A stretch of DNA of 64,000 bases, from positions 170,810,001 through 170,874,000 of the forward strand of contig NC_042998.1 in NCBI RefSeq assembly GCF_006345805.1, in the 5' to 3' direction. This document shows positions 3,724 to 26,821 of this stretch, one piece after another (position 1 is the stretch's first letter; the number at the start of each line of letters is the position of its first letter). The position numbers and the translations under genes were made by a program. This DNA is from Octopus sinensis (Eukaryota). The notes below the pieces were generated by a model. That model searched no databases. It had not been told where the DNA came from and was given only the letters and a program-made list of their open reading frames with translations.

Positions 3724-3749
3724 TGACATAATATATATACATACATACA

Positions 3750-3797
<48 letters not shown>

Positions 3798-3829
3798 TAT
3801 ATATATATTATATATATATATATAAGAAA

Positions 3830-4275
3830 TTAAAAAAAGGAAAATATGCACACTTACATAGTTTTAATGTAATTTTTAATATATCGACCGGTTTCGCTAT
3901 CGCTATTCATGATATTATGTTTTACTTATTTGAATATGTTTTTTTTCTTAAGAAGAAATTTTGTCTATGTTGTGTGTGATGAAATTCACGAGTGAATGAC
4001 TTCACAAGTAAATAAATAAAGGGAGGTAATTGGTTATTATTGTTGTTATTGTTGTGGGTAAGGGAGGATAATCAATTACCTCCCTTTATTTATCTACTTG
4101 TGAACTCATTCACTTGTGAATTTCATCACACACAACATGGACAAAATTTCTTCTTAACAAAAAATACATATTTAAATAAGTAAAACATAATATCATGAAT
4201 AGTGATAACAAAACTGGTCGATATATTGAAAATTATATTAAAACTATGTAAGTGTGCGTATTTCCCTTTTTTTAA
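3830..4275. repeat. Long fold-back (arms ~3830-4038 and ~4067-4275) adjoining (TA)n
   Basis: The arms are reverse complements over ~208 bp, with mostly transition differences. Confidence 0.92.
3881..3915 (-). ncRNA. Minimal type-I hammerhead ribozyme, A3-U8 core variant
   Basis: Minus strand AUAUC-AUGAAUA-GC(GAUA)GC-GAAA-CCGG-UC-GAUAU: 5-bp stem I, 2-bp stem II, palindromic ACCGGU stem III and GUC site. The mirror copy at 4190-4224 (+) has lost G12. Confidence 0.7.
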
Positions 4276-4544
4276 AGGCTACCTCAAGCCGTAATCCCAT
4301 CTCTTCCCATCTTGCCCGCAGCAAGTTCTTAAAAAAATTTATCTTACTATTTTTATTCGTTGTTACTACGTTTATTCATACATTGTTACGAAAAAATTTA
4401 ACCTTTTAGGCTACTTTCAAGCCTTCGCCATAAATTGATTTATCTTTCCTATCTCTCTCTCTACAAAATTTAACCTTAGGCTACCTCAAGCCGTAATCCC
4501 ATCTCTTCCCATCTTTCCGCCATTGGCGGTGCGCCCGCCCCCCA

Positions 4545-26102: not shown

Positions 26103-26330
26103 AAATTCTATAATTATGAGTATAATTGTATAATTATATTTAGGGTTCAGCAAAATTTGCTTCACCACATACCGAAATTTAGAAATAGCAGTTAAACTAC
26201 CATAAGATATCTCCCAGACAGCAATTGGGAGATATCTTATAGTAGTTTAACTGCTATTTCTAAATTTCGGTATGTGGTGAAGCAAATTTTGCTGAACCCT
26301 AATTATAATTATACTCATAATTATAGAATT

Positions 26331-26331: not shown

Positions 26332-26395
<64 letters not shown>

Positions 26396-26490
26396 TTAGA
26401 GACAAAACCACTATTTTGCAAATCAAACAAAGAAAGACTTAATCCAATACATAAAACAATTTTAATATAAATTAAATAAAATTATATTAG

Positions 26491-26536
26491 CCACTACAAT
26501 TGTTTCATGTCTCTTCTCAGGACATTCATCAGGTGG
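26491..26536 (-). ncRNA. Mirror copy of the minimal hammerhead ribozyme
   Basis: Exact reverse complement of 26596-26641. Confidence 0.85.
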
Positions 26537-26595
26537 ATTTCAGGTCTTCTATTCTATTTTAAGTTTAACTTAAAATAGAATAGAAGACCTGAAAT

Positions 26596-26641
26596 CCACC
26601 TGATGAATGTCCTGAGAAGAGACATGAAACAATTGTAGTGG
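26596..26641 (+). ncRNA. Minimal type-I hammerhead ribozyme (C3-G8 core)
   Basis: CCAC-CUGAUGA-AUGUC(CUGAGAAGA)GACAU-GAAA-CAAUUG-UA-GUGG: all core bases present, palindromic stem III ACAAUUGU, cleavage predicted after A26637. Confidence 0.88.
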
Positions 26642-26821
26642 CTAATATAATTTTATTTAATTTATATTAAAATTGTTTTATGTATTGGATTAAGTCTTTC
26701 TTTGTTTGATTTGCAAAATAGTGGTTTTGTCTCTAATTAATATTATATAATATTTTACTATAAAATTGGATTCAATCCTAAATCTGATTTTCCCTGTAAA
26801 TTTGGATTTATTCCCTAATAT

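What the first reader, a model, noticed from the sequence alone, without database searches (positions are those of the whole stretch)
3881..3915. 35-nt hammerhead with an A3-U8 compensatory core
Seen: AUAUC-AUGAAUA-GCGAUAGC-GAAA-CCGG-UC-GAUAU has exact hammerhead spacing, with the double change C3A/G8U preserving the tertiary pair. The mirror arm (4190-4224) keeps AUGAAUA, which shows the variant predates arm divergence. Its stem II changed to GU/AC (still paired) but G12 is lost. Inference: a natural rare-core ribozyme needing dimerisation through ACCGGU.
Basis: partly seen in the sequence, partly recalled or inferred. Interest (0 to 1): 0.7.

Follow-up and report, generated by a model that had tools for sequence, protein, structure and literature searches.

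The report
Flipped-core hammerhead in Penelope retrotransposons
This 35-base stretch is a hammerhead-ribozyme motif at the end of a truncated Penelope-like jumping gene; about a thousand related copies in this genome carry an A-U pair where textbooks show C-G, so it is likely a selected natural core variant, predicted (not yet shown) to cut RNA as a pair of molecules.

Summary
The A3-U8 core is not a local mutation. The 35-mer occurs exactly 201 times in the genome (control 0). It sits in the 3' terminal repeat (pLTR) of a Neptune-type Penelope-like retrotransposon (RT, zinc-finger linker, GIY-YIG upstream in longer copies). Six subfamilies (at least 1,000 copies) keep A3-U8 while stem I changes compensatorily. 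Related families carry U3-A8, U3-G8 or C3-G8; 15 of 15 hand-picked, non-independent representatives pair at 3-8. The RT+endonuclease tree needs at least two switches between A3-U8 and U3-A8 (AU test p=0.02), or a pLTR swap. Unconstrained co-folding gives the double-hammerhead dimer through ACCGGU. This window copy is probably dead: two 5'-truncated copies sit head to head on opposite strands, and a read-through RNA would fold into a long hairpin. The mirror arm is CpG decay and not a dimer partner. Cleavage is untested, and one mutational scan found only the G-C swap rescued. Natural U3-A8 is published; I found no report of natural A3-U8, but two key papers were unavailable. Verdict: new variant of a known kind.

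The parts
3881..3915 (-). Minimal type I hammerhead motif with A3-U8 core; predicted cleavage after C17, between 3886 and 3885
   Evidence: sequence; 201 exact genomic copies; dimer fold
3911..3915 (-). Stem I 5' strand AUAUC (pairs with 3881-3885)
   Evidence: compensatory changes across subfamilies at pairs 2.3-1.3, 2.4-1.4, 2.5-1.5
3904..3910 (-). Core A3 U4 G5 A6 A7 U8 A9 (A3 = 3910, U8 = 3905)
   Evidence: 859 A3 against 36 non-A3 matches; 98 of the first 100 A3 matches listed have U8
3896..3903 (-). Stem II: two base pairs (G10.1-C11.1, C10.2-G11.2) closing a GAUA loop; no extra nucleotide after A9
   Evidence: loop varies (GAUA, GAUU, GAAA, GAA, AUAA/ACAA) while GC...GC is the commonest closure in every subfamily
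3886..3895 (-). G12 A13 A14, self-complementary A15.1-CCGG-U16.1 (3892-3887), and C17
   Evidence: sequence; intermolecular pair probabilities 0.65-0.88 in the dimer ensemble
3881..3885 (-). Stem I 3' strand GAUAU
3816..4071 (-). 5'-truncated 3' end (3' UTR/pLTR) of a Neptune-type Penelope-like element, family A1
   Evidence: 93% identity to longer copies that carry RT and GIY-YIG upstream; no ORF remnant in the window
4067..4275 (+). Inverted 5'-truncated second copy, head to head with the first
   Evidence: 16 differences in 208 nt between the arms
4190..4224 (+). Decayed mirror hammerhead: C10.2U, G11.2A, G12A, and palindrome C>U
   Evidence: three of the four changes are at CpG
3730..3825 (.). 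(TA)n microsatellite at the 3' end of the minus-strand copy; likely insertion target
   Evidence: sequence; most of the 30 family copies shown also end in TA repeats; microsatellite bias of PLEs in PMC8557442 passages

Best explanation
The motif is the pLTR hammerhead of a Penelope-like retrotransposon family whose core carries A3-U8 in about a thousand genomic copies, and it likely still self-cleaves weakly, as a predicted dimer, in the RNA of full-length elements, while this truncated window copy is probably inactive. Shown: the sequence, the copy numbers, the link to an RT + GIY-YIG ORF in the same orientation, compensatory stem I changes, and pairing at 3-8 across related families. Inferred: in a tandem full-length unit the 5' and 3' pLTR motifs (or two transcripts) pair through ACCGGU to build stem III for both. 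A3-U8 would hold the ribose of nucleotide 8 in place as C3-G8 does, its 2'-OH would act as general acid and G12 as general base, and the RNA would be cut after GUC. The element's protein may be needed as a chaperone. A3-U8 likely arose by a flip from U3-A8, at least twice or once followed by a pLTR exchange.
For: 201 exact copies, control 0. 859 of 895 matches to a pattern free at 3, 7 and 8 have A3; 34 of the 36 non-A3 keep U8 and none forms another Watson-Crick 3-8 pair, as expected of single mutations after insertion. Subfamilies A1, A2, B, C, D have stem I ATATC/GATAT, GTATC/GATAC, TGTC/GACA, GAGTC/GACTC, TAGTC/GACTA with unrelated-looking flanks; endonuclease identity of C and D copies to family A is about 45-55% in the longer matches. 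Family J was found through protein similarity and not by motif; it has 224 matches (control 1), 95 of the first 100 listed A3-U8, with a different stem I (AAACG/CGTTT). Sister families E, H, I, K have U3-A8, with U3-G8 in part of E; family G has both a C3-G8 and a U3-A8 subfamily in the same flanks. 15 of 15 representatives pair at 3-8 (6 A-U, 6 U-A, 2 U-G, 1 C-G; shuffle mean 7.4), and N7 is free. The unconstrained dimer minimum-energy fold of the window motif is the double hammerhead (-13.3 kcal/mol), also for the B and C representatives. A full-length family E copy has two same-strand hammerheads 3,975 nt apart around a 923-codon open frame. No variant letter reached the 10% threshold at 3910 or 3905 in contigs of four public runs with four species labels. 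PLE minimal hammerheads cleave weakly as dimers (PMC4209133), and the acid is the 2'-OH of nucleotide 8 (PMC6155905).
Against: No cleavage data. In a full double-mutant scan of a type III hammerhead only the C3G/G8C swap rescued and all other double mutants in that region had low activity (PMC9901934), which includes the A3-U8 equivalent. Stem II has only two pairs, and I saw no loop I-loop II contact. The monomer folds no better than shuffles. Dimer co-folding gave the hammerhead fold for only 4 of 12 representatives (A1, B, C, G_UA); A2, D and J preferred other folds. In the window dimer ensemble, stem I pair probabilities are only 0.29-0.44. The 15 representatives are hand-picked and related, and G_CG was found by a canonical pattern, so the shuffle figure is not a probability. 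No full-length family A copy with two same-strand hammerheads was found. In an anole PLE the hammerhead needed the protein to cleave and was dispensable for insertion in vitro (PMC11167929).
Confidence: 0.7

Rival explanations
1. The hammerhead fold is conserved in these elements but the A3-U8 form is catalytically negligible. It is kept as a protein-binding or reverse-transcription signal, or as a deliberately slow switch.
For: The double-mutant scan found low activity for non-GC swaps (PMC9901934). The anole PLE hammerhead was not needed for insertion in vitro. Some PLE clades lack canonical hammerheads yet spread widely (PMC8557442). Families H, J and part of E also carry insertions or register shifts near the core.
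Against: G12, G5, A6, A9, the AA after G12 and an H at position 17 (C, U or A, never G) are kept in the protein-selected families with a readable motif. The 3-8 pair forms in the catalytically primed core, so its covariation points to selection on that conformation (established hammerhead structure; inference).
Confidence: 0.22
2. A3-U8 is a dead, drifted core that was amplified passively because it sat in successful master elements.
For: All copies within a family share ancestry, so copy number is not independent evidence. The family A copies seen are truncated or broken.
Against: Stem I changed compensatorily several times after the A3-U8 families diverged. A3-U8 occurs in two protein clades that the AU test does not allow together (p = 0.02). 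No subfamily with an unpaired 3-8 was seen among the A3 families.
Confidence: 0.06
3. The inverted repeat is a non-autonomous DNA transposon (MITE) or a hairpin RNA gene, and the hammerhead likeness is incidental.
For: 208-nt arms next to a TA repeat; a read-through RNA folds into one long hairpin at -271.8 kcal/mol.
Against: Most related copies are single arms that extend upstream for variable lengths into an RT + GIY-YIG ORF. Inverted 5'-truncated copies are a known feature of PLE insertions (PMC8557442).
Confidence: 0.02

Closest known systems
[quoted passage not shown]
   Same: Located in the pLTR, sense to the ORF; short stem I; G10.1-C11.1; palindromic 15.1-16.1 segment in place of stem III; many solo truncated copies and close opposite-strand pairs; predicted dimer.
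   Different: Core is A3-U8 (published: C3-G8, and U3-A8 in Schistosoma Cercyon). Stem II is 2 bp, against a larger than usual stem II (7-8 bp in the Schistosoma families). There is no extra nucleotide between A9 and 10.1.
Natural U3-A8 hammerhead core variants (Perreault et al. 2011, PMC3088659, section 8 read; supplements searched)
   Same: Natural covariation of the 3-8 tertiary pair; two-pair stems II are also reported there.
   Different: Purine at 3 and pyrimidine at 8; that section names only U3-A8 as natural covariation, and its 11 supplement files hold no AUGAAUA or AUGAUUA.
Neptune-clade Penelope-like elements (Craig et al. 2021, PMC8557442, passages read)
   Same: C-terminal GIY-YIG endonuclease after the RT, CX2-5CxxC linker, 5' truncation, inverted copy at the 5' end, optional tail, microsatellite targets.
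   Different: Clade placement rests on domain features only; no named reference elements were in my tree.
Engineered 3-8 swaps (Roberts et al. 2023, PMC9901934, passages read; Przybilski and Hammann 2007, title seen, content recalled)
   Same: The same base pair is exchanged. From memory, the 2007 paper found that any Watson-Crick pair retains cleavage in two type III ribozymes, with context-dependent preference for pyrimidine 3 / purine 8.
   Different: Those are laboratory mutants of tertiary-stabilised type III ribozymes; the 2023 scan saw rescue only for G3-C8.

Membership tests
Hammerhead ribozyme | Core U4 G5 A6 N7 N8 A9 ... G12 A13 A14 with A15.1-U16.1 and H17 | tested here: met
   sequence; kept in protein-selected relatives
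Hammerhead ribozyme | Canonical C3-G8 identity | tested here: not met
   A3-U8 in the window and family
Hammerhead ribozyme | Base pair between positions 3 and 8 | tested here: met
   15 of 15 related representatives pair, four pair types; selection and relatedness caveats apply
Hammerhead ribozyme | Stems I and II supported by covariation | tested here: met
   stem I: 13-15 of 15 paired at each of five positions, several pair types; stem II: invariant G10.1-C11.1 in 13 of 15 with variable loop, which is conservation rather than covariation
Hammerhead ribozyme | Self-cleavage after N17 | not testable with these tools
   needs an in vitro assay; only contigs were available from sequencing runs
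Hammerhead ribozyme (Rfam models) | Score above a family's gathering threshold | tested here: not met
   0 Rfam matches in the window, also none for the canonical minimal motif at 26600
PLE minimal (dimeric) hammerhead | Palindromic segment replacing stem III, giving a double-hammerhead dimer | tested here: met
   ACCGGU; dimer minimum-energy fold is the double hammerhead; true for 4 of 12 representatives
PLE minimal (dimeric) hammerhead | Extra nucleotide after A9 and long stem II | tested here: not met
   2-bp stem II directly after A9
PLE minimal (dimeric) hammerhead | Two same-strand copies in the pLTRs of a full-length unit | tested here: inconclusive
   seen for sister family E (L266) and a direct 5' repeat in family I (L261); not seen for family A, whose long copies were 5'-truncated
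Penelope-like element, C-terminal endonuclease | RT followed by GIY-YIG in one ORF upstream of the pLTR | tested here: met
   L008: RVT_1 E 3.7e-5 (24 bits, below the 29.6 cut-off, fragment) and GIY-YIG 27.4 bits (cut-off 22.6); L217 has a 635-codon open frame
Neptune clade | CX2-5CxxC linker before GIY-YIG and CCHH motif | tested here: met
   C-x4-C-x2-C, then the CxxC and two His inside the endonuclease, read from translations
Neptune clade | RT phylogeny with named Neptune elements | not tested
   no named reference sequences were fetched

The most novel reading that the evidence does not exclude
A3-U8 is a fully working natural hammerhead core that has arisen repeatedly by base-pair flips from U3-A8 in one retrotransposon clade. 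It combines a purine-3/pyrimidine-8 pair with a two-pair stem II in one of the smallest natural hammerheads, so descriptor searches limited to C3-G8 and U3-A8 miss a whole class of ribozymes and some 'hammerhead-less' Penelope-like elements have one.
Probability: 0.45. Interest if true: 0.68.

Novelty: new variant of a known kind. Interest (0 to 1): 0.52.

Why it matters
The 3-8 pair positions the general acid of the hammerhead. Nature was known (in the papers I could read) to use C3-G8 and U3-A8, and a laboratory scan suggested that A3-U8 is poor. One genome here holds related retrotransposon families with C-G, U-G, U-A and A-U at this pair, with covarying stems. That is a ready natural series for testing what the core tolerates and whether Penelope-like elements need cleavage at all, which is still open. 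It also says that ribozyme search descriptors should allow any pair at 3-8. The window locus itself is an ordinary dead insertion.

Tried and rejected
Rfam scan of the window: nothing. Monomer folding: not better than shuffles. Sequencing runs: no RNA holder listed; the four runs laid were contigs, which cannot show ends, strand or expression. (1,834 matches, control 30) is not used as a family count because 13 of its 30 loci are another repeat without a stem I. The lower substitution rate in the motif than in its flanks among 30 A1 copies (non-CpG 12/810 against 167/5225) is not used: the flanks include subfamily differences and the copies were chosen by similarity to the query. An alternative register (C3 plus an inserted A) was rejected because stem I then fails and covariation fixes C2.1-G1.1. 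The endonuclease-only trees did not resolve families C and D (AU p = 0.12), so they are left out of the count of switches; B was not in the RT+EN tree either. A3-U8 hammerheads outside this animal group: 0 of 23 viral and 0 of 19 metagenome matches have a stem I of 4 bp or more; these collections hold few animal sequences, so this says little about other animals. Literature: searches for 'A3-U8', C3A + G8U, and related terms gave no report of a natural A3-U8 core; 'octopus' + hammerhead + Penelope gave nothing on it. Lunse et al. 2017, Przybilski and Hammann 2007, Hammann et al. 2012, Nelson and Uhlenbeck 2008 and Lee and York 2008 were not held, and one supplement file of PMC4209133 could not be searched; any of these may already mention the variant. 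The supplements of PMC9901934 were listed but not read, so I have no number for its A-U double mutant. Earlier findings of the scan: none. The regions upstream of 20 further long copies were not read, so a full-length family A unit remains unseen.

Full report
Observation. The minus strand of 3881-3915 reads AUAUC-AUGAAUA-GCGAUAGC-GAAA-CCGG-UC-GAUAU. In hammerhead numbering this is a 5-bp stem I, a core A3 U4 G5 A6 A7 U8 A9, a 2-bp stem II with a GAUA loop, G12 A13 A14, a self-complementary A15.1-CCGG-U16.1, and C17. It lies in one arm of a 208-nt inverted repeat (3830-4037 and 4068-4275, 92%). The other arm holds the motif at 4190-4224 with four changes: C10.2U, G11.2A, G12A and a C>U that breaks the palindrome. 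Three of the four are at CpG sites. Rfam finds nothing in the window, and the monomer folds no better than shuffles.

What it belongs to. A DNA search of the own genome with the arm gave 1,541 candidates, of which 40 were scored, at 94-98% identity for the best. The 30 loci fetched carry A3 in 30 of 30 and U8 in 29 of 30. They share a 3' end near TA repeats and extend upstream for variable lengths. Longer copies run into an ORF with an RT (YLDD motif; Pfam RVT_1 fragment below cut-off), a C-x4-C-x2-C linker and a GIY-YIG domain above cut-off. By the features given in PMC8557442 (passages) this is a Neptune-type Penelope-like element. The motif lies about 290-320 nt after the ORF end in the sense direction in unbroken family A copies. 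The window holds only two 5'-truncated 3' ends, 4071 to 3816 on the minus strand and 4067 to about 4275 on the plus strand, with no ORF remnant. A protein named from Octopus bimaculoides matches part of the endonuclease at 86%, so the host is probably an octopus (inference).

A3-U8 is a family trait. The 35-mer occurs 201 times exactly, against 0 for the control. With positions 3, 7 and 8 free, 859 matches have A3 and 36 do not. Of the first 100 A3 matches listed, 98 have U8. Of the 36 others, 34 keep U8 and none forms another Watson-Crick pair, which is the pattern of single mutations after insertion. Five subfamilies were sorted among 99 distinct copies (34 A1, 6 A2, 36 B, 11 C, 12 D; these samples were enriched on purpose for non-A1 and non-A3 copies). 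Stem I pair 2.3-1.3 is A-U in A1 and A2 and G-C in B, C, D. Pair 2.4-1.4 is U-A in A1, A2, B and A-U in C, D. Pair 2.5-1.5 is A-U, G-C, mismatch, G-C and U-A. N7 and the stem II loop vary freely. Endonuclease fragments of C and D copies are about 45-55% identical to family A in the longer matches.

Relatives chosen without the motif. Because those patterns fix most of the core, I also chose elements by protein similarity (89 matches; 50 examined) and read what lay downstream. My scan found a motif in 32 of the 50; several others were truncated or mutated, or were read by eye. Family H has U3-A8 with a 5-bp stem II, families I and K have U3-A8 with longer stems II, family E has U3-A8 or U3-G8 with a 2-bp stem II, and family J has A3-U8 with a different stem I, an extra base after G12 and a longer stem III segment. 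Genome-wide, J gives 224 matches (control 1), 95 of the first 100 listed being A3-U8. A pattern for 'not A3, not U8' gives 1,297 matches (control 8); of the first 100, 90 are U3-A8 and 6 U3-G8. Family G has a C3-G8 and a U3-A8 subfamily in the same flanks. Canonical C3-G8 minimal motifs are also common (2,170 matches, control 459). Over 15 hand-picked representatives, 15 pair at 3-8 and 13-15 pair at each stem I position. These rows are related and partly chosen by pattern, so the shuffle fractions are not probabilities.

History. On a 476-column RT + endonuclease tree of 32 rows, family A (A3-U8) is sister to H (U3-A8) at 100/99, and J (A3-U8) is a separate clade. Two changes are the minimum, and the AU test rejects A and J together at p = 0.02 (the grouping was tested after the tree was seen; B, C and D were not in this tree). 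So the pair flipped between U-A and A-U at least twice, or pLTRs were exchanged between families. The direction is not fixed by the tree, whose base is unresolved; U3-A8 is the commoner state among the neighbours. Contigs of four public runs under four species labels cover the motif with no listed variant at 3910 or 3905 (85% likeness, 10% reporting threshold), so the core is probably shared by related species.

Mechanism. Unconstrained co-folding of two copies of the window motif gives the double hammerhead as the minimum-energy fold (-13.3 kcal/mol), with the palindrome paired at 0.65-0.88 and stem I at 0.29-0.44. The same held for 4 of 12 representatives and failed for A2, D and J among the A3-U8 families. 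A full-length family E copy has two same-strand motifs 3,975 nt apart around a 923-codon open frame, the arrangement that would supply a partner in one transcript; I saw no such copy for family A. G12 is the general base and the 2'-OH of nucleotide 8 the general acid (PMC6155905, passages), so a Watson-Crick pair of another kind at 3-8 could keep the chemistry (inference). PLE minimal hammerheads cleave weakly as dimers (PMC4209133), and an anole one needed the element's protein and was dispensable for insertion in vitro (PMC11167929, passages). Against activity, a complete double-mutant scan found rescue only for G3-C8 (PMC9901934, passages). I put the PLE identity near 0.97, selection on the hammerhead fold near 0.9, and measurable cleavage near 0.7; these are my estimates. 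At this locus the two motifs are on opposite strands, the second has lost G12, and a read-through RNA folds into one long hairpin (-271.8 kcal/mol) that would bury the motif, so this copy is probably inactive.

Novelty. Hammerheads in PLE pLTRs and natural U3-A8 cores are published (PMC4209133, PMC3088659). My searches and supplement searches found no natural A3-U8, but Lunse et al. 2017 and Przybilski and Hammann 2007 were not available. From memory, the latter showed that engineered A3-U8 can cleave. The bare core pattern in viral and metagenome collections gave 42 matches, none with a stem I of 4 bp or more. Verdict: a real, selected, new core variant of a known ribozyme in a known kind of element; interest 0.52.

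Noticed in passing
window 26383-26749: A perfect 183-nt inverted repeat holds two identical canonical C3-G8 minimal hammerheads head to head (core starts at 26600 + and 26532 -; palindrome ACAAUUGU, cleavage triplet GUA): probably a young insertion of another Penelope-like family.
   Followed up: partly
window 26128-26314: A second inverted repeat, 89-nt arms, 98% complementary, next to the first.
   Followed up: no
window 4276-4400: A different repeat abuts the right arm; it has very high summed contig depth in the four runs, including the two guessed to be RNA, and a 41-nt internal direct repeat at 4276 and 4478.
   Followed up: no
window 3852-3857 (-): GTAAGT, a splice-donor-like motif, lies about 25 nt after the hammerhead in family A copies; PLE pLTRs can hold introns (recalled and in PMC4209133).
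   Followed up: no
L245, L247, L250, L251 (family J): A3-U8 hammerheads with an extra base after G12 and stem III segments ACCATGGT, ACCATTGGT, ACCACTGGT or ACCAATTGGT, some of which could fold as monomers.
   Followed up: partly
L220-L242 (family H): Young elements with open frames up to about 800 codons; 13 of the 14 with a motif found have an extra A after G12 (GAAAACCGGUU) and all cleave-site triplets are GUU.
   Followed up: partly
L162, L266, L197: U3-G8 wobble cores in part of family E and in another family: a possible step between C3-G8 and U3-A8. L266 is a full-length tandem unit.
   Followed up: partly
L253, about 210 nt after the ORF end: A single copy, sister to family J on the tree, appears to have A3 with A8 and a 6-bp stem I; it may be decay or a trace of the intermediate of a flip.
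   Followed up: no
L032, L034, L038 and others: An abundant repeat with CUGAUUA...GAAACCGGUC but no stem I in the hammerhead register and no match to the RT or endonuclease probes; nature unknown.
   Followed up: partly
L160-L179 (family E): Many copies lack the A at 1.1 after GUC, which shifts stem I by one base and leaves an extra U before the core.
   Followed up: no
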